Source: an uncultured Hyphomonas sp. | GTDB lineage: Bacteria > Pseudomonadota > Alphaproteobacteria > Caulobacterales > Hyphomonadaceae | DNA length: 64,000 nucleotides | Assembly: GCA_964538945.1 (NCBI GenBank) | Contig: CAZIGV010000013.1 | Span: 12,148-76,147 of the forward strand | Reading direction: 5' to 3' | Shown: piece by piece, positions 3-11,377 of the stretch | How the letters are laid out: every line of letters begins with the position of its first letter | Position numbering within the stretch: the stretch's first letter is position 1 | Notes under the pieces: model-generated | Database searches by the model: none | What the model was told of the DNA's origin: nothing | The model's input: the letters and a program-made list of their open reading frames with translations, nothing else | Program-made: the position numbers and the translations under genes

Positions 3-1091
3 GAAATCTGCCGCGCAATAGGCGCCGCCGGACTGTCGGGTGAACCGGCAAGGGTCGTGCTCGAGAAGCCGATCGGGACGGATCTTGAATCCGCCCGGGC
101 GATCAATGACGGTGTCGGGCAGGTATTCACGGAGCGGCAGGTCTTTCGTATCGACCACTATCTCGGCAAGGAAACCGTACAGAACCTGATGGTGCTGCGA
201 TTTGCCAACATGCTGTTCGAGCCGCTCTGGTCGCACAATTATATCGACCACGTGCAGATTACGGTTGCGGAAAATCTCGGGCTTGAGGGCAGGGCCGATT
301 ACTATGACCGCTCGGGCGCACTTCGGGATATGGTGCAGAACCATCTCCTGCAGCTGCTTTGCCTGACTGCAATGGAGCCCCCCAACAACCTCGGCGATGA
401 CGATATCCGCACCGAGAAGATCAAAGTGCTCAACGCACTGAGCCCGATTTTGCCGGACCAGGTGCGCAAGCAGACCGTACGCGGACAATATATTGCGGGC
501 CTGTTCGATGGTAAGCCAGCCAAGGGTTATCTGGAAGAGCTCTCCTCGGCGACCGGAAGCCGGACCGAGACATTTGTCGCTGCCAAAGCGGAAGTGAAGA
601 ACTGGCGCTGGGCTGGCGTGCCGTTCTACCTGCGCACCGGCAAACGGATGTCAGGGCGGCATTCTGATATCGTGATCCAGTTCAAGGCGGCGCCGCACAA
701 CATTTTCGACCAGTCGGTTGAGAACGTGAACCGTCTCGTTATCCGTCTGCAGCCGGATGAGGCGGTGCGCCTGTTCGTACAGATCAAGGAGCCTGGTCCC
801 GGAGGGCTGCGCGTCAAGTCGCTGCCTCTGAACCTCTCTTATGCCGAGAGCTTCATGCTGCGCTATCCGGACGCCTATGAGCGCTTGCTGATGGATGTTG
901 TACGCGGAAACCTGTCCTTGTTCATGCGGCGCGATGAGGTCGAGGCGGCCTGGCGCTGGGTGGATGGCCTGATTGAAGCCTGGGACGTCAGCGGTTATCT
1001 GCCTGAGCCATACCCGGCGGGTACGGACGGCCCGCTTTCGGCTGCTATGATGATGGACCGCGACGGACGCAACTGGTGGAGGGAAAGCTAG
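3..1091 (+). CDS. zwf: Glucose-6-phosphate 1-dehydrogenase (5'-truncated by window edge)
   Basis: Frame is open from position 3 (EICRAIGAAGLSGEPARVVLEKP). G6PD motifs VVLEKPIG, RIDHYLGKE, DMVQNHLLQL, WAGVPFYLRTGKR, YERLL. Confidence 0.97.
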   Translation, partial: EICRAIGAAGLSGEPARVVLEKPIGTDLESARAINDGVGQVFTERQVFRIDHYLGKETVQNLMVLRFANMLFEPLWSHNYIDHVQITVAENLGLEGRADYYDRSGALRDMVQNHLLQLLCLTAMEPPNNLGDDDIRTEKIKVLNALSPILPDQVRKQTVRGQYIAGLFDGKPAKGYLEELSSATGSRTETFVAAKAEVKNWRWAGVPFYLRTGKRMSGRHSDIVIQFKAAPHNIFDQSVENVNRLVIRLQPDEAVRLFVQIKEPGPGGLRVKSLPLNLSYAESFMLRYPDAYERLLMDVVRGNLSLFMRRDEVEAAWRWVDGLIEAWDVSGYLPEPYPAGTDGPLSAAMMMDRDGRNWWRES

Positions 1092-1096
1092 GCGTC

Positions 1097-1795
1097 ATGG
1101 AACCGCGGTTGATGACTTACGCCACGCGGGAAGCCGCGTCGAAAGCGGTGTCGGCGTTCGCCGCACAGGCGCTTGCGGCCGATATTGCCCAACAGGGGCG
1201 GGCAAGCCTGTTTGTGTCGGGTGGATCAACGCCCAGGCAAACCTTTGAGATCTTGAGCGGCGAGCCGCTCGACTGGTCGAAGGTTACGGCCGGGCTGGTC
1301 GATGAGCGCTGGGTTCCACCGGACCATGCGGACTCCAATGAGCGCCTCGTTCGGAGCCATCTCCTGAAATCGTTTGCCGGAGCAGCTGGCCTCTTGCCGA
1401 TGTGGACGCCTGGCGTCGATGCCGGACTGGCAGCGGCGGAGCGCGATCTGGCCTACCGTCCCCATTGTGTGTCGCCGTCTTTTGTTCTGCTGGGCATGGG
1501 GACGGACGGGCATACGGCCAGCTGGTTTCCGCGAATGCCCGGGCTCGATAAGGCCCTGACGAGCGATAATGGTCAGTGTGTGATGATGGCGCAGGCAGCC
1601 GGGGCGCCGGTGCCGCATCGGCTGACCTTGACCGGCGCGGCTGTTGTCCGTGCCAGACGTGCTGTTCTGTTGATTTTCGGCCGCGAAAAGCTGGCAGTGC
1701 TGGAGACCGCGATGGCGTCAGATGCGCATGCTTTTCCGGTTCGTTTTGCAATCGACGGCCTTGGTGACCGGTTGCTGATCATGTGGGCAGAATAG
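1097..1795 (+). CDS. pgl: 6-phosphogluconolactonase
   Basis: VSGGSTP, LVDERWVP, SNERLVR, LLGMGTDGHTASWFP. Lies between zwf and edd. Start placed at ATG 1097, downstream of the zwf stop, rather than the ORF-track 1076. Confidence 0.93.
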   Translation: MEPRLMTYATREAASKAVSAFAAQALAADIAQQGRASLFVSGGSTPRQTFEILSGEPLDWSKVTAGLVDERWVPPDHADSNERLVRSHLLKSFAGAAGLLPMWTPGVDAGLAAAERDLAYRPHCVSPSFVLLGMGTDGHTASWFPRMPGLDKALTSDNGQCVMMAQAAGAPVPHRLTLTGAAVVRARRAVLLIFGREKLAVLETAMASDAHAFPVRFAIDGLGDRLLIMWAE

Positions 1796-3631
1796 ATGAC
1801 CATCAAGCTAAACCCTGTCGTTGAAGAAGTAACTGCCCGGATTGAGGCGCGTTCGGCGGATGCGCGCAGCGCTTACCTCGAGCTGATCCGGTCTCGCAGG
1901 CCGACGGGCTTTGCGCGTTCTCGCCTGACAGACGGCAATCTGGCCCATGCGTCGGCCGGCTGTTCGGTGATCGAAAAGGCGCAGATCCTCGGTGCCGGCT
2001 GGCCGGTGATCGGCATCATCACCGCTTACAACGACATGCTGTCGGCGCATGCGCCGTTTGAGGACTATCCGAAACTCTTGCGTGAGGCGGCGCGCGAAGT
2101 TCACGCTGTGGCACAGGTTGCGGGCGGGGTGCCGGCTATGTGCGATGGGATCACTCAAGGTCAGGAAGGGATGGAGCTGTCTCTGTTCTCACGCGACGTG
2201 ATTGCCATGGCATCGGCTGTCGGCCTGTCCCATGACTCTTTCGATGCTGCGCTGCATCTTGGTGTTTGCGACAAGATCATCCCGGGGCTTGTGATTGCGG
2301 CGCTCAGGTTCGGTTGGCTTCCCTCGATATTTGTTCCCGCCGGGCCGATGCCGTCGGGCCTGCCCAACCCGGAGAAAGTCCGCATCCGGCAGCTTTTCGC
2401 CGAAGGAAAGGTCGGGCGCGAGGCTTTGCTCAAAGCGGAGGCTGCAAGCTATCACGGGCAGGGCACCTGCACGTTTTATGGTACCGCCAATTCAAATCAG
2501 ATGCTCATGGAAGTCATGGGGTTTCATCTGCCTGGGGCGGCCTTCCCTAATCCGGGCACCCCGCTGAGAACCGCGCTCACGCGCGCGGCCGCGCAGAAGG
2601 CAGCAAGCCTGACGGCGCAGGGAAGCGACTACCGTCCGCTCGGAGAGCTTTGCGATGCTCGCAGCGTAGTCAACGGTATTGTCGGTCTGATGGCGACGGG
2701 GGGCTCGACCAACCATGCGATACACATTCCCGCCATGGCTGCGGCGGCCGGTTGGGAGGTGACGCTCCAGGATTTCGCCGACCTGTCCAAGGTTACCCCC
2801 TTGCTCGCGCGCGTCTATCCGAATGGTCCGGCGGATGTGAACCACTTCCACGCCGCTGGCGGCATGGGCTTCCTGATCGCGGAGCTGATCAGGGCGGGTC
2901 TGATGCACGGTGATGCGGCAGGTATCGCCGGGCCATTGACTGTCTATGCGCAGGAGCCCGTCCTCGAGGATGGCCGGCTGACCTGGCGGCCGGCGCCGCA
3001 CAGGAGTGCGGACACCGACGTACTCCGGTCTGCTGACAGCCCGTTTTCTTCCGATGGTGGATTACGCCTGATGCAGGGTCTGCTCGGGGAAGGGGTCTGC
3101 AAGGTTTCGGCTGTCAAGGCTTCTCACAGGCTGGTCGAGGCACCGGCAATGGTTTTCGAGTCGCAGGAAGGGCTGAAGGAGGCGTTCGAGGCGGGGAAAC
3201 TGGACCGCGACTTTGTCGCCGTGGTCCGGTTCCAGGGGCCTGCTGCCAATGGCATGCCGGAACTGCACGGGCTGAGCCCGATCCTGGGAGTGTTGCAGGA
3301 CCGCGGTCATAAGGTGGCCCTTGTGACTGACGGGCGCATGTCCGGGGCAAGCGGCAAGATACCGGCAGCGATCCATATCTGCCCCGAGGCTGCGAGGGGC
3401 GGCAACATTGCCAAGCTGCGCGATGGCGACGTCATCCGGCTGGATGCGGAACGGGGGCTGCTGGAAATCAGGGTCGAAGAGGCTGAATTTCATGCGAGGC
3501 AGGTGGCAGAATTCAGGCCAAACCGTTCGCCGGCCGGACTTGGACGGGAGATGTTTGATCTGCTGCGTCAGTCGGTGGGCGCGGCTTCGTCTGGTGCGAG
3601 TCCCTTTACCTTTCCGGGTTTGCGGGCCTGA
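1796..3631 (+). CDS. edd: Phosphogluconate dehydratase (Entner-Doudoroff)
   Basis: IlvD/Edd motifs [56 protein letters not shown] immediately follows the pgl TAG. Confidence 0.97.
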
Positions 3632-4593
3632 TGATGGACGGGCCGGTGCTGGTGGGAGATGTGGGCGGAACGAACGTTCGTTTCGCCTGGGCCGTTCGAC
3701 GGGGCGGCGCGTTCAGGATGGAGCGCTTCGAGGTGCTCCAGGGCAAGGATTTCCCGACCTTCGAGGAGGCCCTCCAGCGTTACCTGGATCAGTCCGGCGT
3801 CAGGCCGGCGCTTGCCTGCTTCGCCATGGCCGGGCCGGTCAAGGATGGGGTTGGGCGGCTTACCAATCGTGACTGGCTGATCTCCGGTGAAACGATTGCT
3901 GCCCGGTTTGGCATTGCGGACGTAATGGTCATCAATGACTTCCTGGCGATGGCGCGGTCGGTGCCTGAACTGGATCAGGACGCCTTTGAGAGCCTTTTTG
4001 AAGGCGATGTTGTTGCGGGAGCGCCCACGATCGTCGCTGGTCCCGGAACGGGATTGGGCGTCTCGACGCTGGTTCCTTCCGGCGAGGGCTGGAGGGTAAT
4101 TTCCGGCGAGGGTGGCCACACCGCCTATTCGCCGCGAACGGACCTCGAGCATGATGTGTCACGCGTGTTGAAGCGCGACCACGGATATGTTTCGAACGAG
4201 CTGATTGCCTCGGGCAGCGGGCTTGTCGCCGTGCACCGTGCCTTCTGTGAATTGTTCGGCCGCAGCTACGAACCCGTCTCGCCTGCAGAAATGCGGGTGA
4301 GGTCTGATGCGGGTGACGGGATGTTCCGGTCGCTGATCGAGCTTCGCGCGCTTGCCGTGATGGGTTTTGTGGGTGATCTGGCGCTGATTAATGGCGCGCT
4401 TGGCGGTGTGGTGCTGGCTGGCGGCGTCTCAGAGCGGATATCAGACTTCCTCAGGACGCCTGCGGCGCGCGAGCGGTTCGTCGCGCGTGGGCCGATGAGT
4501 GATTTCCTGAGCCGGTGTCCGGTAAGACTGCTGCACGAGCCTGTCGCACCGCTGGTCGGAGCCGCCGCGCACTTCGTGCAAGCCCGTAACTGA
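3631..4593 (+). CDS. glk: Glucokinase
   Basis: GDVGGTNVRFA, INDF, GPGTGLG, GEGGH, GGVVLAGGV. TGATG overlap with edd. Confidence 0.95.
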   Translation: MMDGPVLVGDVGGTNVRFAWAVRRGGAFRMERFEVLQGKDFPTFEEALQRYLDQSGVRPALACFAMAGPVKDGVGRLTNRDWLISGETIAARFGIADVMVINDFLAMARSVPELDQDAFESLFEGDVVAGAPTIVAGPGTGLGVSTLVPSGEGWRVISGEGGHTAYSPRTDLEHDVSRVLKRDHGYVSNELIASGSGLVAVHRAFCELFGRSYEPVSPAEMRVRSDAGDGMFRSLIELRALAVMGFVGDLALINGALGGVVLAGGVSERISDFLRTPAARERFVARGPMSDFLSRCPVRLLHEPVAPLVGAAAHFVQARN

Positions 4594-4877: not shown

Positions 4878-7688
4878 ATGGACGTCAATCTGAAAATGAA
4901 CCGCGCACGCCTCATGATGAGTGCTGCAACAGGTCTTGTTCTGCTCATGTCGGGGGCTGCCTGGGCGCAAACGGACGACCCGGCCGCGCCGGTTGCTGCA
5001 GAACAGCCTGAGGCGCCTGAGGCGGAAGACAGCCGGACGCTTGATAAGGTGGTGATCACGGGTATCCGGTCGTCCATTGAGAACTCGCTGCTGACAAAAA
5101 AGAACGAGACGTCCATCGTCGAGGTCATCTCGTCGGAAGACATCGGCAAGCTTCCCGACCTTTCGATCGCTGACTCGCTCGCCCGCCTCCCCGGCGTCAC
5201 GGCCCAGCGGGTGCGCGGCCGGTCCCAGCAGGTTTCCATCCGGGGCCTGGGTCCTGATTTTTCGCTCGCCTTGCTCAACGGACGTGAAGTGGTGTCCGCC
5301 GGCAATAACCGCGGCGTCGAGTTCGACCAGTTCCCGTCAGAACTGGTTGCCCAGGGTGTTGTCTACAAGACCCCGGATGCGCGACTGGCTGCGACCGGTA
5401 TCGCCGGCGCGGTCGACCTGCGCACCATCCGTCCGCTCGACTATGACGATGTCCGTCTCAATCTTTCGGCCAAGTATTCCCAGAATGACAATGGCCAGCT
5501 GAACCCCGACTTCAATGATGACGGGTATCGCATATTCGGATCCTATATTGACCAGAATGATGCCGGCACGATCGGCTGGTCGCTGGCTGCAACAGTCCAG
5601 TCGAACCCGACGCAGTTCTACTCACGCGAACTGAAGACGAACTCCGGTCAGACGCGGGTCAACCCGGCGACGGGCCTTGTCTATCCCACGGACAATCCGC
5701 GCTCAGGCGTCGTTTCGCGCGAGTTCCAGCGGACGTCTGTGGCAGGAAGCCTGCAGTTTGAACCTACGGAACGCTGGCAGACGACGATCGATGCCTTCTA
5801 CTCGGATACCGAGGATTCGGGCATTTTCCGGGGTGTCGAGACGCCGATTGCCTCCTGGGCCAATTCCAGTCCGGCGCTGATCAGTATCACCGGAACCTCC
5901 GGTTTCGCCGACAGCGCGACCTATCGCCCGGTCAACCCGATCCTTCGCACCGACACCGAAGGCAATACAGCAGAGATCTGGGCGGCAGGCATCAATTCCT
6001 CCTACCAGGTCACGGATCGGCTGAAACTGACCGGTGACCTGTCGATATCGACGCTCGACCGCAATGATATCGACTATGAATCCTATGCGGGTACGGGCTT
6101 CGGCGGTACGGGTGCGTTCGACACCATGACGTTCCTGTTCCCGGATGACGGCGCATATCGCATCAATACGCTCCTCGACTATACCGATCCGTCGGTGGTT
6201 GTTCTCACAGATCCGGGCGGCTGGGGCCAGGTTGGCTTCATCAAGCAGCCGAAGATCGAGGATGAACTCAACCAGATCCGTCTCGAAGCGGAGTATTCAA
6301 CCGACCTTCCCTTCATTTCAGGGCTGGTTGGCGGTGTGATCCTGACCAATCGGGAAAAGACCTTCGATTCCAACGAAGCCTTCCTTCGCGCCGGTCCGGG
6401 GTTTGTCGGCGGTGAGCTGGCGATCCCGGCAAGCACGATCGTGGGCGCCACCAGCTCCGGTTCACTCGGCTTCGACATGATCGCCTACGATCCGGCGCGG
6501 TTCCTGACCGACGGCACGTACAGGCTCGATGATGCCAATGATACCCAGTGGTCGGTCGAAGAGGAACTGCGGACCTGGTATGCGATGGCAAACATCGACG
6601 GTGAGTTTTCCGGTGTGCCGGTCCGCGGAAACATTGGCGTCCAGTACGTTCAGACAGAGCAGTCATCGAGCGGCACACTGAACTTTGCCAATAATCGGTT
6701 CGAGCAGACCGTCGAGGACGATTATTCCAACGTCTTGCCGAGTGCGAACCTCAGCTTCGAGGTGAGCCCGGATACGTTCGTCAGGGTTGCGGCAGCAAAG
6801 ACGCTGACGCGCCCGCGGCTGGATCAGCTTGCCGCCAATCAGGGCCTTGGCTCGAACCCCTTGTCCTGTATCGACACGAACGCCGATCAGCTGCCTGACG
6901 TCGTGGTCGCTGTGAACCCGCAAGCCGGTTTGACCTGCTTCTCACAGTCCGGTGGCAACCCGTTCCTTCAGCCGTATCAGTCCACATCCTATGACCTCGC
7001 CTTCGAGCGTTATTTTGGCTCTGCAACGGCCTTCTCGGTTGCCGTGTTCCACAAGGAGCTTTCCGACTGGGTGATCGATCGCTCGCTCATACTCGATGGG
7101 ACTCAATCGATCGAGGCGGGCGGTCTCGGCGCCTTCCTTGCTGCGAATCCGCAGGTCGCCGATGTGCTGTTCAGCGGTCCGGAAAACTTCGCTGACGGAT
7201 CCATAACAGGGCTTGAAGCGACATTGCGCGTGAGCCTTGACGAGGTGTTACCTGAGGTTCTCGAAGGATTTGGTTTCACGGCGAGCTATACCTATGCCGA
7301 TAACGGACTGAAGAATCCGGCTGGCAATGAGATCGCCATTCCAGGTTATTCCGATACCGTTTGGTCCGGCGACATATATTATGAAAACCATGGCTGGCGC
7401 ACGCGCCTGAGTGCGCGTCACCGTTCCGACTTCCTGTCTGAGATACAGAACTTCGACGGTTCGCTCTCGGGCGCACAGGCACTCGAGGAAACCATGGTGG
7501 ATCTGCAGATCGGCTACGAGTGGGATGAGGGGCCGCTGCAAGGGTTCGGTGTCAATTTTGAAGTGTTCAATCTGACCGACGAACCGTTCGTGACCGAGAA
7601 TGTGACTGCAAATCCTGACGTCACCTTCCCCAGCCGGCATGAGCTGTACGGCACGACCTATAACATCACGATCTCGAAATCGTTCTGA
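4878..7688 (+). CDS. TonB-dependent outer-membrane receptor (Caulobacter/Xanthomonas carbohydrate-type)
   Basis: Signal peptide ending AWA-Q. TonB box LDKVVITG. Plug SSEDIGKLPDLSIADSLARLPGV. Late-barrel motifs NVLPSANLSF and GGNPFLQPY. C-terminal Phe (ISKSF). Confidence 0.95.
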   Translation: MDVNLKMNRARLMMSAATGLVLLMSGAAWAQTDDPAAPVAAEQPEAPEAEDSRTLDKVVITGIRSSIENSLLTKKNETSIVEVISSEDIGKLPDLSIADSLARLPGVTAQRVRGRSQQVSIRGLGPDFSLALLNGREVVSAGNNRGVEFDQFPSELVAQGVVYKTPDARLAATGIAGAVDLRTIRPLDYDDVRLNLSAKYSQNDNGQLNPDFNDDGYRIFGSYIDQNDAGTIGWSLAATVQSNPTQFYSRELKTNSGQTRVNPATGLVYPTDNPRSGVVSREFQRTSVAGSLQFEPTERWQTTIDAFYSDTEDSGIFRGVETPIASWANSSPALISITGTSGFADSATYRPVNPILRTDTEGNTAEIWAAGINSSYQVTDRLKLTGDLSISTLDRNDIDYESYAGTGFGGTGAFDTMTFLFPDDGAYRINTLLDYTDPSVVVLTDPGGWGQVGFIKQPKIEDELNQIRLEAEYSTDLPFISGLVGGVILTNREKTFDSNEAFLRAGPGFVGGELAIPASTIVGATSSGSLGFDMIAYDPARFLTDGTYRLDDANDTQWSVEEELRTWYAMANIDGEFSGVPVRGNIGVQYVQTEQSSSGTLNFANNRFEQTVEDDYSNVLPSANLSFEVSPDTFVRVAAAKTLTRPRLDQLAANQGLGSNPLSCIDTNADQLPDVVVAVNPQAGLTCFSQSGGNPFLQPYQSTSYDLAFERYFGSATAFSVAVFHKELSDWVIDRSLILDGTQSIEAGGLGAFLAANPQVADVLFSGPENFADGSITGLEATLRVSLDEVLPEVLEGFGFTASYTYADNGLKNPAGNEIAIPGYSDTVWSGDIYYENHGWRTRLSARHRSDFLSEIQNFDGSLSGAQALEETMVDLQIGYEWDEGPLQGFGVNFEVFNLTDEPFVTENVTANPDVTFPSRHELYGTTYNITISKSF

Positions 7689-7712: not shown

Positions 7713-7747
7713 AGGCCCGCCCCGAACAGGGCGGGCCTTCTGTTTTT
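7713..7747 (+). terminator. Rho-independent terminator-like hairpin after the TBDR gene
   Basis: 10-bp stem AGGCCCGCCC (7713-7722) / GGGCGGGCCT (7729-7738), 6-nt loop, then TCTGTTTTT. Confidence 0.8.
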
Positions 7748-7794: not shown

Positions 7795-9303
7795 ATGCGT
7801 CACAATCCGATCCGTTCAATCGTTATCGTTGGTGGCGGGACCGCCGGCTGGATTGCGGCGGCCGCTTTGTCAAAGCTGCTGCCACGGACCCTTCAGATCA
7901 CCCTGATTGAATCTGAGGCAATCGGCACAGTCGGTGTCGGCGAAGCGACGATTCCCCAGATCCGGCGTTTGAATGGTACGCTCGGGCTCGATGAGGATGA
8001 TTTTCTGCGGTCCACCCAGGCGTCGTTCAAGCTGGGCATCGAATTCGTAAACTGGGGGCGCGTCGGCGATCGCTACCTGCACACGTTCGGTGATCCGGGA
8101 ATAAACCTCGCCAATCTTCACTTCCATCACTACTGGCTGCGCGCGCGCGCCGAAGGAAGTGAGGCGAGCCTTTGGGACTACTCTCTGCACCAACACGTTG
8201 CCCGGTCTAACAGGTTCGGAAGGCTGGAGCGCGTCGGCAACACCTCGATGACGGGACTTGCCTATGCCTTCCACTTCGATGCGTCACTGTATGCTGGCTA
8301 CCTGCGAAAGCTTGCCGAAGCCTGCGGGGTTGTGCGCGTGGAGGGCAAGATCGCGGCGGTAACGCTCAAGTCCGATACCGGGTTCATCGAGAGCGTCTCA
8401 CTGCAGGCGGGGCCTGTCATATCCGGAGACCTCTTCATCGATTGCTCCGGCTTTCGTGGATTACTGATCGGTGATGCCCTCGGTGTCCGATATCAGGACT
8501 GGTCCAGGTGGCTCCCCTGCAACCGGGCCTGGGCTGTTGCCTGCGAACGGGCAGGGCCGCTTTTGCCTTACACGCGCGCGACGGCGCATTCTGCCGGATG
8601 GCAATGGCGCATCCCGCTTCAGCACCGGACCGGCAACGGGCATGTATTCTGCGACAGTTTCATTTCCGAGGATGAAGCCGCACGGGTGCTCACGGACGCT
8701 CTCGACGGACGGATGATCGGTGAGCCCCGGCCGCTGAAGTTCACCACGGGCCGGCGTGAGGCCTTCTGGCACAAGAATTGTGTTTCCATCGGCCTCGCAA
8801 GCGGATTTCTGGAGCCGCTTGAATCGACGTCAATTCATCTGATCCAGTCCAACATTTCCCGGTTGATCGAGCTCTTTCCATCTCGCAGTTTCGATCCGGC
8901 CACGATTGCCGAGTATAACCGCAGGGTCGGTCATGAGTTCGAGCTGATCCGGGATTTCCTGATATTGCACTATAACCGCACAGACCGGAATGATTCCGAA
9001 TTCTGGAACTACTGTCGCAACATGGCCATTCCGGAAAGCTTGGCTGCCAAGGTGCGGTTGTTCGAAGAAAACGGGCTGCTCCACAAGGATCCGGAGGATC
9101 TGTTCAGGGAGTCGAGCTGGGTGCAGGTGATGATCGGTCAGGGCCTGTCTCCGAGAGGTTATCATGCCATGGCAGACCGTCTGTCAACGGAGCAGTTGTC
9201 GGCGTTCCTGGCGGATGTACAGCGCATCATCGCGCGCGCAGAGGGTGCGTTGACCGGGCATGCCGAGTTCATCGAGGCTCACTGCAAGGCGGACTTGCAG
9301 TAG
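7795..9303 (+). CDS. Flavin-dependent halogenase, tryptophan halogenase family (copy 1)
   Basis: GGGTAG (FAD binding), GVGEATIP, FK79LGIEF (PrnA K79 equivalent), WQWRIP (WxWxIP), FLEPLESTS. No signal peptide. Confidence 0.93.
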   Translation: MRHNPIRSIVIVGGGTAGWIAAAALSKLLPRTLQITLIESEAIGTVGVGEATIPQIRRLNGTLGLDEDDFLRSTQASFKLGIEFVNWGRVGDRYLHTFGDPGINLANLHFHHYWLRARAEGSEASLWDYSLHQHVARSNRFGRLERVGNTSMTGLAYAFHFDASLYAGYLRKLAEACGVVRVEGKIAAVTLKSDTGFIESVSLQAGPVISGDLFIDCSGFRGLLIGDALGVRYQDWSRWLPCNRAWAVACERAGPLLPYTRATAHSAGWQWRIPLQHRTGNGHVFCDSFISEDEAARVLTDALDGRMIGEPRPLKFTTGRREAFWHKNCVSIGLASGFLEPLESTSIHLIQSNISRLIELFPSRSFDPATIAEYNRRVGHEFELIRDFLILHYNRTDRNDSEFWNYCRNMAIPESLAAKVRLFEENGLLHKDPEDLFRESSWVQVMIGQGLSPRGYHAMADRLSTEQLSAFLADVQRIIARAEGALTGHAEFIEAHCKADLQ

Positions 9304-10793
9304 GCGTCGATAAAGCTGCGATGGTCAGGCATTGCGGCGACCGCTTCTTCCATAGCTGCCCGGATCTGCCTCATCCGCTCCGGGACGATGTCGCTCTGCT
9401 TGAGCCCGGACAGGGCAGGGGCCCGGGTGGGAATCACGTTCTGGCCGATAAGCACAGCGATCCAGCTCGGATTGGTGAACAGTTCGCGTTCGTCTGAAAC
9501 GACCAGGCCATGTGAGCGGAAGTGCTCGATCTTGTACTTTAGCCGGTCTGGTATCTCCATGTCCGCGCAGTGGCGCCAGAAGTCATCATCCCTGCGTTCG
9601 GTGGCCTTGTAGTGAAGGACCAGGAAGTCACGAATACGCTCATACTCGGCTGAGGTAAGGGCATTGTATTCCTCGGCCAGCAGGGGAGACATTTGCCTGT
9701 CCGGGAAAAGGGCCAGAAGCCTCATGATGCCATACTGGATCAGATGGAGGCTTGTGGACTCCAGCGGTTCCATGAACCCGGCCGACAGCCCGATCGCGAC
9801 GCAGTTCTTGTTCCAGAATCTCTTCCGGCGGCCGGTGACGAAGCGGATGTGGCGCGGCGCGGCGAGGGGGGCGCTGTCCATGGACGCCAGCAATTCCTGT
9901 TCTGCCTCCTGCGTCGAGATGAAGCCGTCACAAAAGACATATCCGTTGCCGACCCGGTGCTGCAGGGGGATGCGCCACTGCCAACCTGCTCGCTTGGCGG
10001 TCGATTTCGTAAAGGGAAACAGGGGTTGATCCGAATTGCATGGCGCGGCCACGGCACGGTTGCAGGGCAGCCATCGGGACCAGTCCTCATATCCGGTCGA
10101 CAAGGTTTTTTCGATCAGCAGGCCGGAGAAGCCCGTACAGTCTATGAAAAGATCCCCTGGCAGTTCGCGCCCGTCCGCAAGTGTCACACTGCGGATAAAG
10201 CCCGAATCAGGGTCCTGCGAGGCGTGTGTGACCCGGCCCTCAATCCGCAGGACGCCGCGCGCCTGCGAATACCTGCGAAGGTAGCCGGCATAGAGGCCGG
10301 CATCAAAATGGTAAGCATAGTCAAAGGTTGACTGAATGAGGCGCTTGTTCCGCTCGGGGTGGCTGAACCGGTTAGCGGCTGACATGGCCCAGGCCATGGA
10401 ATAATCATCGAGTGACGCAACCCTGCCGTTCAGGTGTTCCCGGATCCAGTGCTGGTAGAAAGGCAGTTCATCGAACTCGGCCCCATACTGGCCAAAAGGA
10501 TGAAAGTAGGCGTGGCCCTGCCGGGTCCAGTTGACGAACTCGATCCCGAGTTTGAACGTGCCGCTGGTTTCCCTGAGGAAGGTCTGCTCATCTATCCCCA
10601 GACGGGCATTGAATATTTTCACCGGCGGAATCGTCGCCTCACCCACGCCGATCGTGCCGATTTCCTCTGATTCGACCAGAGTGATCGTGCAAGCCCCTTC
10701 GGTCGCCTTCGCGAGAGCCGCCGCCGCCATCCAGCCGGCCGATCCGCCGCCGAGAATTACGATGCGTTCAATCTGTCCCGAACTGCTCTGCAT
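9279..10793 (-). CDS. Flavin-dependent halogenase, tryptophan halogenase family (copy 2)
   Basis: GGGSAG, GVGEATIP, FK81LGIEF, HPFG, WQWRIP, FMEPLESTS. Convergent with copy 1, with a 25-bp overlap. Confidence 0.93.
   Translation of the reverse strand: MQSSSGQIERIVILGGGSAGWMAAAALAKATEGACTITLVESEEIGTIGVGEATIPPVKIFNARLGIDEQTFLRETSGTFKLGIEFVNWTRQGHAYFHPFGQYGAEFDELPFYQHWIREHLNGRVASLDDYSMAWAMSAANRFSHPERNKRLIQSTFDYAYHFDAGLYAGYLRRYSQARGVLRIEGRVTHASQDPDSGFIRSVTLADGRELPGDLFIDCTGFSGLLIEKTLSTGYEDWSRWLPCNRAVAAPCNSDQPLFPFTKSTAKRAGWQWRIPLQHRVGNGYVFCDGFISTQEAEQELLASMDSAPLAAPRHIRFVTGRRKRFWNKNCVAIGLSAGFMEPLESTSLHLIQYGIMRLLALFPDRQMSPLLAEEYNALTSAEYERIRDFLVLHYKATERRDDDFWRHCADMEIPDRLKYKIEHFRSHGLVVSDERELFTNPSWIAVLIGQNVIPTRAPALSGLKQSDIVPERMRQIRAAMEEAVAAMPDHRSFIDAYCKSALQ
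9281..9301. repeat. Inverted repeat inside the overlap of the two halogenase genes
   Basis: ACTGCAAG (9281-9288), GCGGA, CTTGCAGT (9294-9301): perfect 8-bp arms within a longer imperfect palindrome at 9259-9323. Confidence 0.9.
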
Positions 10794-10860
10794 TTGCTCG
10801 CCTTTTCCTGATCTATGACCCTCTTGAGGCCGCTCCTCCAGTACGCCGTCCGTGACCTAG

Positions 10861-10906
10861 GGCCGCAGCCTGCGGCCGGTGTAACATGCCGCAGAGCGGT
10901 TATAAT
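10861..10906. promoter_or_regulatory. Divergent promoter region (halogenase 2 / nuoA) with palindrome and -10-like element
   Basis: GGCCGCAG-C-CTGCGGCC (10861-10877). Consensus TATAAT at 10901-10906 inside the self-complementary TTATAA. No good -35 found. Confidence 0.35.
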
Positions 10907-11002
10907 GCCGGGCACAGCAGCAGGCGCACCGGTTCGTGTTGCACAAGCGTAAAAACCGTCCTAATCGAGCGGCCGCTGACCCTGTGCCCGGAGGTACCCT
11001 GC

Positions 11003-11377
11003 ATGTCCGAAGTCGAGAGCCTGGCGCTGGATTATCTGCCGGTGATCTTTTTCATCGTGCTGGGCGCGGTCATTTCCGGCCTGTTCGTCCTGGGCTCGGT
11101 CCTGCTGGCCCCTTCAAAGCCGGATCCGGAAAAGAATTCGGCGTATGAGTGCGGCTTCAACGCCTTTGATGATGCGCGCATGAAGTTCGACGTGCGCTTC
11201 TATCTCGTGGCGATCCTGTTCATCATTTTCGACCTTGAGGTGGCCTTCCTGTTTCCGTGGGCCGTCAGCCTCGGCGAGATCGGCGTGCTCGGTTTCTGGT
11301 CGATGGTCGCCTTCCTCGGGGTGCTGACGGTCGGCTTCATCTATGAGTGGCGCCGCGGCGCACTGGAGTGGGAGTGA
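11003..11377 (+). CDS. nuoA: NADH-quinone oxidoreductase subunit A
   Basis: [38 protein letters not shown]. Start set at ATG 11003 after GGAGG (10990-10994). Confidence 0.97.

What the first reader, a model, noticed from the sequence alone, without database searches (positions are those of the whole stretch)
9259..9323. Two convergent paralogues share a palindromic 3' overlap that encodes the same C-terminal motif on both strands
Seen: the 25-bp overlap (9279-9303) reads H-C-K-A-D-L-Q-stop on + and Y-C-K-S-A-L-Q-stop on -. The core is a perfect inverted repeat ACTGCAAG-GCGGA-CTTGCAGT. It extends to an imperfect 65-bp palindrome centred at 9291 (21 of 30 arm positions match; HAEFIEAHCK versus HRSFIDAYCK). 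Each gene's L-Q tail is dictated by the antisense of the other's conserved C-K codons. The genes are otherwise well diverged, so this is not a recent inverted duplication. Inference: the spacer was deleted until the two conserved Cys-Lys motifs interlocked. The hairpin, present in both mRNAs, may serve as a shared bidirectional terminator or processing site, and the overlap permits antisense or collision-based mutual regulation.
Basis: partly seen in the sequence, partly recalled or inferred. Interest (0 to 1): 0.65.

Follow-up and report, generated by a model that had tools for sequence, protein, structure and literature searches.

The report
Interlocked 3' ends of two convergent halogenase genes
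Two old paralogous halogenase-like genes face each other with no spacer, so each reads 3 codons into the antisense of the other's conserved C-terminal motif and stops there; the palindrome and hairpin follow from this geometry and show no sign of being a conserved signal.

Summary
Gene A (7795-9303, +) and gene B (9279-10793, -) are Trp_halogenase-family paralogues, 50% identical. They overlap by 25 bp around a perfect 8-bp inverted repeat.

The cause is geometric. The family ends in a conserved motif [H/Y/N]-C-x-[A/S]. A's H-C-K-A (9280-9291) and B's Y-C-K-S (9302-9291) abut and share one wobble base. With wobble opposite wobble, the antisense of [H/Y]-Cys codons necessarily reads Gln-stop. 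Each gene therefore ends inside the other's motif.

The TonB receptor-A-B module with a squeezed junction recurs in 27 other loci (Hyphomonadaceae, Parvularcula, Maricaulis, Emcibacter). Junction lengths across all 28 loci, the window included:
- 25 bp overlap in 16 loci
- 22, 28, 31, 40, 19, 21, 8 or 4 bp overlap in the others
- a 4-bp spacer in one locus

A and B are separate old subfamilies, so this is not a local inverted duplication.

The strong hairpin is specific to this lineage. Most orthologous junctions fold no better than gene-body sequence, there is no covariation, and no U-tract follows the stem. The terminator and regulatory ideas are not supported, but they are untested. This is an ordinary kind of feature (a convergent gene overlap) in an unusually tidy form.

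The parts
4878..7688 (+). TonB-dependent receptor, first gene of the conserved receptor-A-B module
   Evidence: Pfam Plug and TonB_dep_Rec_b-barrel. An orthologue lies upstream of A in nearly all pair loci.
7713..7738 (+). Intrinsic-terminator-like hairpin with a T-run after the receptor gene
   Evidence: 10-bp stem with 9 GC pairs, followed by TCTGTTTTTG. It shows that canonical terminators are used in this locus, unlike at the A/B junction.
7795..9303 (+). Gene A, a flavin-dependent halogenase-like protein of 502 aa
   Evidence: PF04820, E = 1.9e-189. Nearest solved structures are 9luq, Xcc4156 (6y1w) and BrvH (6frl). The GGGTAG, FKLGIEF, GWQWRIP and EPLEST motifs were read.
9279..10793 (-). 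Gene B, a paralogous flavin-dependent halogenase-like protein of 504 aa
   Evidence: PF04820, E = 9.5e-190. It is 50% identical to A with no gaps and belongs to a separate subfamily.
9279..9303 (.). 25-bp 3' overlap of A and B, with third codon positions facing each other
   Evidence: The same 25-bp overlap is present in 15 other loci.
9280..9291 (+). A's conserved C-terminal motif H496-C497-K498-A499. Its antisense supplies B's Leu-Gln-stop.
   Evidence: Family consensus [HYN]-C-x-[AS]: Cys in 188 of 254 homologues, Ala or Ser in 212 of 254. Codon reading.
9291..9302 (-). B's conserved C-terminal motif Y498-C499-K500-S501. Its antisense supplies A's Asp-Leu-Gln-stop. It shares base 9291 with A's motif.
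9281..9301 (.). Core hairpin or palindrome: 8-bp arms 9281-9288 and 9294-9301, loop 9289-9293
   Evidence: The central 31 nt fold at -16.9 kcal/mol. The hairpin is not conserved in orthologues.
9259..9323 (.). Extended imperfect palindrome, 21 of 30 arm positions. The arms are the homologous codons H-x-x-F-I-x-x-[HY]-C-K of the two genes read on opposite strands.

Best explanation
This is a conserved convergent (tail-to-tail) gene overlap. It arises because two anciently diverged paralogues are packed against each other with zero spacer.

**What is shown**
- The family's functional C-terminus is the motif [H/Y/N]-Cys-x-[Ala/Ser]. In homologues elsewhere, what follows it is a free tail of 0-29 residues.
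- In this locus the two motifs abut back to back and share one wobble base, 9291.
- Third codon positions face each other. In this phase the antisense of (C/T)A(C/T)-TG(C/T), which encodes [His/Tyr]-Cys, is necessarily CA(A/G)-T(A/G)N. That reads Gln and then, with the right neighbouring base, a stop codon.
- Each ribosome therefore reads three more codons through the antisense of the partner's motif and terminates inside it.
- The palindrome is the DNA image of the same conserved peptide encoded on both strands about one axis. The perfect 8-bp stem appears in this lineage because both genes happen to use the same codons: (C/T)AC TGC AAG.

**What is inferred**
- The state arose by loss of the intergenic DNA and of both original stop codons.
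- It persists because only indels in multiples of three, and few substitutions, are tolerated by both genes.
- The hairpin is a by-product, not a selected signal.
- Transcription most probably runs past the junction into the partner gene and is ended by Rho or by polymerase collision.
For: **Geometry and code logic**
- Read directly from the sequence.
- Across 254 homologues the motif is conserved: Cys in 188, Ala or Ser two residues later in 212. The tail after Cys is 2-31 aa in genes outside pairs (list).
- Among homologues that keep the Cys, the last residue is Gln in 34 of 45 pair genes, against 5 of 143 other genes.

**Comparative series, 28 loci including the window**
- Overlap of 25 bp in 16 loci.
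- Overlaps of 22 bp (2 loci), 28, 31, 40, 19, 21 and 8 bp (1 each), and 4 bp (3 loci).
- A 4-bp spacer in one locus.
- 25 of the 28 are of length 3n+1, that is, the same phase.
- The other two phases would give tails of 6 codons, or of 68 and 35 codons.

**A and B are old, separate subfamilies**
- A is 60-62% identical to single-copy genes of Sphingomonadales, against 50% to B.
- One gammaproteobacterial MAG (L085) carries A and B in tandem on one strand.
- Within-genome A-B distances (0.64-0.93) are as large as or larger than the largest A-A or B-B distance (0.71).
- A-A and B-B distances correlate at r = 0.80, so the pair has diverged together as a unit.

**The hairpin is not conserved**
- 65-nt folding percentiles at orthologous 25-bp junctions mostly fall between 0.3 and 0.98.
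- 68.4% of cells pair, against 67.0 +/- 1.3 in column shuffles. The covariation score is 0.203 against 0.181 +/- 0.019, reached by 66 of 500 shuffles.
- No terminator is called at the junction.
- Rfam finds nothing there: the only match in 9000-9600 is a below-threshold chance hit about 110 nt upstream (E = 0.21).
Against: - In this genome the hairpin is unusually stable, in the best 1% of windows on both strands. A local effect on transcription or mRNA decay cannot be excluded.
- A few relatives also have strong junction hairpins (L012, L010, and L005 on one strand).
- One measure, the number of further pair types, was reached by only 15 of 500 shuffles.
- The junction has stayed within -40 to +4 bp in every lineage found. 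Selection for tight convergence could also explain that.
- The direction of change (deletion rather than insertion) is inferred from an unbootstrapped NJ tree.
- No strand-specific RNA data exist for the window's organism.
Confidence: 0.8

Rival explanations
1. The junction hairpin is a selected bidirectional terminator or pause site of the collision type. Converging polymerases pause at the stem-loop present in both transcripts, collide there, and both mRNAs end at the junction.
For: - A stable hairpin is present in both strands' RNA in the window.
[quoted passage not shown] They need a stem-loop to fix the collision site (preprint 10.1101/2022.10.23.513370).
- No other terminator is called for either gene.
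Against: - Hairpin strength is not conserved among orthologous junctions.
- There is no significant covariation.
- Synonymous differences break the stem in L005, L009 and L012, although the residues are identical.
- Junctions with 4-8 bp overlap mostly lack any hairpin: L021 and L082.
- A 151-nt metatranscriptome contig spans the junction of a Henriciella-like relative. At least one transcript therefore runs more than 50 nt past it, although DNA carry-over is possible.
Confidence: 0.1
2. The zero-spacer convergent layout is kept by selection because overlapping antisense transcription, in the manner of an excludon, or RNase III cleavage of the paired 3' ends, couples or mutually excludes expression of the two paralogues.
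For: - The convergent layout with a junction between -40 and +4 bp is found in all 28 loci, while the outer flanks change.
- The two mRNAs necessarily share at least 25 complementary nucleotides.
- The excludon concept is established (PMC7154746, listed).
Against: - All the loci are orthologous, so this may be one event plus inertia under deletion bias.
- Overlap length and sequence vary freely wherever both proteins allow it.
- There is no expression evidence. Both genes show low RNA coverage together in one metatranscriptome.
Confidence: 0.08
3. The palindrome is the fossil of a fold-back (hairpin-primed) inverted duplication of a single ancestral gene, with its axis at the loop.
For: - The symmetry is exact: tails of equal length, axis at 9291.
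- The two proteins align without gaps.
Against: - A and B fall in different old subfamilies. Each is closer to genes of other orders (about 60%) than to the other (50%).
- The two subfamilies occur singly, and once in tandem on one strand.
- Nucleotide identity is only 56%.
- The symmetry follows automatically from the phase once one gene stops in the partner's motif.
Confidence: 0.02

Closest known systems
Convergent (tail-to-tail) overlapping gene pairs of prokaryotes, formed by loss of a stop codon and extension to the next antisense stop (Rogozin et al. 2002, as cited in PMC2478687; Lillo and Krakauer 2007, PMC2174442)
   Same: - Both are real genes whose 3' ends overlap on opposite strands.
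- The overlap is conserved across species.
- The phase, as I read that paper's notation, is (123:213). That is the phase of the common 4-nt overlaps such as TTAA.
- Origin by loss of the original stop codons fits the stop-mutation model that the paper favours for convergent overlaps.
   Different: - The partners are paralogues, so the overlap is symmetric and palindromic.
- Each stop codon is supplied by the partner's conserved [H/Y]-Cys codons.
- At 25 bp it falls in the phase that holds only 18% of convergent overlaps of 5 nt or more.
Bidirectional, collision-dependent terminators between convergent E. coli genes (Ju et al. 2019, as cited in preprint 10.1101/2022.10.23.513370)
   Same: - A stem-loop without a U-tract sits where two convergent transcription units meet.
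- It is present in both transcripts.
   Different: - Here the stem-loop lies inside both coding sequences.
- It is fully explained by coding homology.
- It is not conserved in orthologues.
- No 3' ends have been mapped.
BrvH and Xcc4156, flavin-dependent halogenases annotated as tryptophan halogenases that brominate indole; the native substrate of BrvH is unknown (PMC5945002, PMC7754283, PMC7336383)
   Same: - A matches 6y1w (Xcc4156) at E = 2.4e-155 and 6frl (BrvH) at E = 6.4e-141.
- The alignment to Xcc4156 runs through the C-terminal H-x-x-F-[IL]-x-x-[HY]-C-x-A motif.
   Different: - Activity and substrate of A and B are untested.
- Here the genes belong to a TonB-receptor module that lies next to Entner-Doudoroff genes.

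Membership tests
Convergent overlapping gene pair | Both overlapping reading frames are real genes up to their stop codons | tested here: met
   Both proteins align to family homologues through the C-terminal motif. Both hit PF04820 at about E = 1e-189.
Convergent overlapping gene pair | The overlap is conserved in other genomes and is not an annotation or assembly artefact | tested here: met
   26 of 27 related loci overlap, 15 of them by exactly 25 bp. The junction is identical in four independent runs.
Intrinsic (Rho-independent) terminator | G+C-rich stem-loop | tested here: met
   8-bp perfect stem; the central 31 nt fold at -16.9 kcal/mol.
Intrinsic (Rho-independent) terminator | A run of U directly after the stem | tested here: not met
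   The + strand continues AGGCGTCGATAAAG and the - strand GAGCCTCGATGAAC. The scan calls no terminator at the junction.
Bidirectional collision-type terminator | A stem-loop at the meeting point of convergent units, seen in both transcripts | tested here: met
   for this genome only.
Bidirectional collision-type terminator | Coincident 3' ends of both transcripts at the element | not testable with these tools
   No RNA run holds the window. In a relative, only undirected metatranscriptome contigs are available, and one of them spans the junction.
Conserved structured RNA or DNA element | The structure is maintained across orthologues, with compensatory changes | tested here: not met
   Pairing equals the column-shuffle expectation, with no significant covariation. 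Most orthologous junctions are not outliers in folding energy. Rfam has no match at the junction.
Recent inverted duplication or fold-back palindrome | Arms that are nearly identical, and copies that are each other's closest relatives | tested here: not met
   56% nucleotide and 50% protein identity. A and B lie in separate subfamilies.
Flavin-dependent halogenase (Pfam Trp_halogenase PF04820) | Full-length domain match, plus the GxGxxG, WxWxIP, catalytic Lys and Glu motifs. The motif definitions come from my knowledge of PrnA and RebH. | tested here: met
   GGGTAG/GGGSAG, GWQWRIP, FKLGIEF and EPLEST were read in both translations. Enzyme activity is not testable here.

The most novel reading that the evidence does not exclude
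The zero-spacer interlock is kept by selection, not by inertia. Convergent transcription through the shared 3' end, helped in this lineage by the strong hairpin as a pause site, makes the two halogenase paralogues regulate each other through polymerase collision or through pairing of their mRNA 3' ends. The pair would then act as a built-in toggle or balance within a TonB-receptor uptake module.
Probability: 0.08. Interest if true: 0.55.

Novelty: new member of a known kind. Interest (0 to 1): 0.27.

Why it matters
**What it offers**
- It is a clean, well-replicated example of how a conserved protein motif on one strand fixes the stop codon and last residues of a gene on the other strand.
- It shows how far two genes can be packed together before function is lost.
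- It is useful for teaching and for benchmarking models of overlapping-gene evolution or design.
- For annotators, the Asp-Leu-Gln / Ala-Leu-Gln tails are antisense shadows, not functional residues.

**What it does not do**
- As it stands it does not open a new mechanism.
- It would matter more only if the junction proved to control expression of the two paralogues.

Tried and rejected
- **Assembly chimera at a palindrome:** rejected. Four independent runs and 27 related loci show the same architecture.
- **Local inverted duplication:** rejected on phylogeny and distances.
- **Gene conversion homogenising the 3' ends:** the last 10 codons are 80% identical against 56% overall, but 6.4% of 10-codon windows are at least as similar. 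Within-genome A-B distances are never small.
- **Known RNA family at the junction:** none. The only match is a chance snoRNA hit below threshold.
- **Intrinsic terminator:** no U-tract.
- **RNA data for the window's organism:** none found. The metatranscriptome contigs for a Henriciella-like relative are undirected, of low depth and possibly contaminated with DNA, so they show only that something spans the junction.
- **Structure prediction to place the terminal Cys:** not run. It would have needed a costly homologue search and does not bear on the junction question.
- **One literature query** failed on a syntax error.
Full report
**1. The observation**

Gene A (7795-9303, +, 502 aa) and gene B (9279-10793, -, 504 aa) converge and overlap by 25 bp, 9279-9303.
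- A ends H-C-K-A-D-L-Q-stop. B ends Y-C-K-S-A-L-Q-stop.
- The core is the perfect inverted repeat ACTGCAAG (9281-9288) / CTTGCAGT (9294-9301) around the loop GCGGA.
- The wider palindrome centred on 9291 matches at 21 of 30 arm positions.
- As RNA, the 65 nt fold at -29.0 kcal/mol (+) and -26.8 kcal/mol (-), with z about -4.2 against shuffles. They rank in the best 1% of 65-nt windows of the two genes.
- A perfect 8-bp repeat with a 3-8 nt loop is not rare in itself. The window has 13, and shuffles give 9.3 +/- 3.8. Only its position on the junction is notable.
- Contigs from four independent metagenome runs carry the identical junction.

**2. What the genes are**

- Both are full-length members of Pfam Trp_halogenase PF04820, at E about 1e-189. 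They are 50% identical over 497 residues with no gap.
- Both keep the flavin-binding GxGxxG motif, the WxWxIP motif (GWQWRIP), and the Lys (FKLGIEF) and Glu (EPLEST) of flavin-dependent halogenases. I read these; the motif definitions come from my own knowledge of PrnA and RebH.
- The nearest solved structures are 9luq, Xcc4156 (6y1w) and BrvH (6frl). Xcc4156 and BrvH brominate indole, and BrvH's native substrate is unknown (PMC5945002, PMC7754283, PMC7336383).
- Upstream lies a TonB-dependent receptor (4878-7688), followed by a canonical terminator-like hairpin with a T-run (7713-7738).
- Further upstream are zwf, pgl, edd and glk. Downstream, divergent from B, the nuo operon begins.

**3. 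Why the ends interlock**

In 254 homologues collected from 159 loci, the C-terminus carries a conserved motif: [ML]-P-x-H-x-x-[FY]-[ILV]-x-x-[HYN]-C-x-[AS].
- Cys is present in 188 of 254, and Ala or Ser two residues later in 212 of 254.
- In genes outside convergent pairs, the part after the Cys is 2 to 31 residues long. Many end exactly at C-x-A.

In the window, A's H-C-K-A occupies 9280-9291 and B's Y-C-K-S occupies 9302-9291. The two minimal C-termini therefore abut and share one base, 9291, which is the wobble position of both.

The codon phase puts third positions opposite each other, and first positions opposite second positions.
- In this phase the antisense of (C/T)A(C/T)-TG(C/T), encoding [His/Tyr]-Cys, must read CA(A/G), which is Gln, followed by T(A/G)N.
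- T(A/G)N is a stop when the preceding codon ends in the right base.
- Here GCT before A's CAC gives B's TGA, and GCC before B's TAC gives A's TAG.
- So each gene reads three extra codons (D-L-Q or A-L-Q) through the antisense of the partner's motif and stops inside it.

The symmetry needs no separate explanation. The phase relation is reciprocal, so once A stops in B's motif, B must stop in A's motif.

The other two phases would give tails of 6 codons, or of 68 and 35 codons. The observed phase is therefore the least costly, and one more of the three would also be tolerable.

Among homologues that keep the Cys, the final residue is Gln in 34 of 45 pair genes, against 5 of 143 other homologues.

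**4. Relatives**

Two scans of species-representative genomes gave 27 further loci with the A-B pair convergent and with an orthologous TonB receptor upstream of A. Counting the window, junction lengths across the 28 loci are:

| Junction | Loci |
|---|---|
| 25 bp overlap | 16 (the window; Hyphomonas, Henriciella, Hirschia, Algimonas; and Parvularcula in another phase) |
| 22 bp overlap | 2 |
| 28, 31, 40, 19, 21, 8 bp overlap | 1 each |
| 4 bp overlap | 3 |
| 4 bp spacer | 1 (Maricaulis) |

- 25 of the 28 have length 3n+1, the same phase. This is what one expects if only in-frame indels survive in a stretch read by both genes.
- The number of bases between the two Cys codons runs 55, 32, 26, 14, 11, 8.
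- In Litorimonas and some Algimonas the Cys motif has been lost from both genes, and the overlap is only 4-8 bp.
- On the A-clade tree the 25-bp state is spread over the core Hyphomonadaceae. The looser junctions sit in outlying branches.
- This fits progressive loss of spacer down to the functional limit. The direction of change is an inference from an unbootstrapped NJ tree.
- The outer flanks (glk, nuo) are shared only with the closest Hyphomonas genomes, so the three-gene module is the conserved unit.

**5. Not an inverted duplication**

- A and B fall in separate clades whose common ancestor is the root of the 254-sequence tree.
- A is 60-62% identical to single-copy genes of Sphingomonadales. 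B is 59-60% identical to single-copy genes of Burkholderiales and gammaproteobacterial MAGs. A and B are 50% identical to each other.
- One gammaproteobacterial MAG (L085) has an A-type and a B-type gene in tandem on one strand.
- Within-genome A-B distances (0.64-0.93) are never smaller than typical between-genome distances.
- A-A and B-B distances across the pair loci correlate at r = 0.80, so the pair has diverged as a unit without homogenisation.
- Codon-aligned nucleotide identity is 56%. The last 10 codons reach 80%, a value met or exceeded by 6.4% of 10-codon windows.

**6. Is the hairpin a signal?**

- No U-run follows the stem on either strand, and the scan calls no terminator there. 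The receptor gene, by contrast, has a textbook terminator.
- Of the 14 other 25-bp junctions in the same phase, only L012 has a hairpin that stands out on both strands, and L005 and L009 stand out on the minus strand only. L010, with a 22-bp overlap, also stands out. At most of the rest the percentile among gene-body windows is 0.3-0.98.
- The three closest relatives (about 80% protein identity) have central hairpins of only -6 to -9 kcal/mol, against -16.9 here.
- On the alignment of 15 junctions, the full palindrome pairs in 68.4% of cells. Shuffling partners among genomes gives 67.0 +/- 1.3. The covariation score is 0.203 against 0.181 +/- 0.019, reached by 66 of 500 shuffles.
- Pairing is thus explained by both arms encoding the same conserved residues, not by coupling within a genome.
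- One measure, the number of further pair types, was reached by only 15 of 500 shuffles. I treat this as weak.
- L005, L009 and L012 encode the same HCK/YCK residues but use different synonymous codons in A and B, and this interrupts the stem.
- Rfam has no match at the junction.
- No RNA run holds the window.
- In two marine metatranscriptomes, contigs matching a Henriciella pelagia-like locus include a 151-nt piece that spans the junction. It runs from 52 nt before B's stop to 74 nt beyond A's stop. At least one transcript therefore seems to continue past the junction. These contigs are undirected and shallow, and DNA carry-over is possible.

**7. Comparison with what is known**

Convergent overlaps are a recognised class.
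- They are thought to arise mainly by loss of a stop codon and extension to the next stop.
- 4-nt forms such as TTAA and CTAG dominate.
- Among convergent overlaps of 5 nt or more, the phase seen here, (123:213) as I read the notation, accounts for 18% (PMC2174442).
- Long conserved convergent overlaps exist but are uncommon (PMC2478687).

This case belongs to that class. Its twist is that the partners are paralogues, which makes the overlap symmetric and palindromic and has each conserved motif supply the other gene's stop codon.

Collision-type bidirectional terminators of E. coli use a stem-loop without a U-tract to position head-on collisions (preprint 10.1101/2022.10.23.513370). The window's hairpin could in principle act that way. 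The lack of conservation argues that such a role, if it exists, is incidental.

**8. Verdict**

- The sequence observation is correct.
- The proposed terminator or regulatory function is not supported by comparative evidence, and it remains experimentally untested.
- This is a neat but ordinary convergent gene overlap. I put 0.8 on the by-product explanation, and about 0.2 in total on a functional role for the hairpin or for the tight convergence.

Noticed in passing
window 57-4593: An Entner-Doudoroff gene set (zwf, pgl, edd, glk) lies directly upstream of the TonB receptor and the halogenase-like pair. This hints that the module belongs to a sugar-uptake context, not to a secondary-metabolite cluster.
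   Followed up: partly
window 10794-11002: B is transcribed divergently from nuoA across a gap of about 210 bp. The longest nuoA ORF starts at 10886, but the Pfam match fits a start at the ATG at 11003. This flank is shared only with the closest Hyphomonas genomes.
   Followed up: partly
L016 5496-5503; L021 5500-5503; L082 5515-5518: In Litorimonas and some Algimonas, both paralogues have lost the otherwise conserved C-terminal Cys motif. They end a few residues after the F/Y-I/V element and overlap by only 4-8 bp. The Cys is therefore dispensable in at least these lineages.
   Followed up: partly
L019 5482-5506 (Parvularcula lutaonensis): B ends R-Y-A-P-A-A-Q-F-stop. This looks like a 1-nt loss inside the Tyr-Cys codons (TAT-GCG in place of TAT-TGC), which shifts the frame. 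It may be real or a sequencing error.
   Followed up: no
L085 451-3458: A gammaproteobacterial MAG carries an A-type and a B-type gene in tandem on the same strand, 20 bp apart. This is a possible picture of the arrangement before one gene was inverted.
   Followed up: partly
L007 3800-7200 (Henriciella pelagia-like), runs X23 and X24: In two marine metatranscriptomes, contig depth over the 3' end of the TonB receptor gene is 42-56. Over A and B it is mostly 0-8. This fits strong receptor expression with termination before A, but contig depth is a poor measure of expression.
   Followed up: no
L033, L053, L059, L062, L063, L068, L074: In other proteobacteria, homologues occur as same-strand tandem arrays of three or four copies. 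Each array includes a very divergent copy, 24-36% identical to A or B. The convergent pair is thus one of several ways this family is multiplied next to TonB receptors.
   Followed up: no
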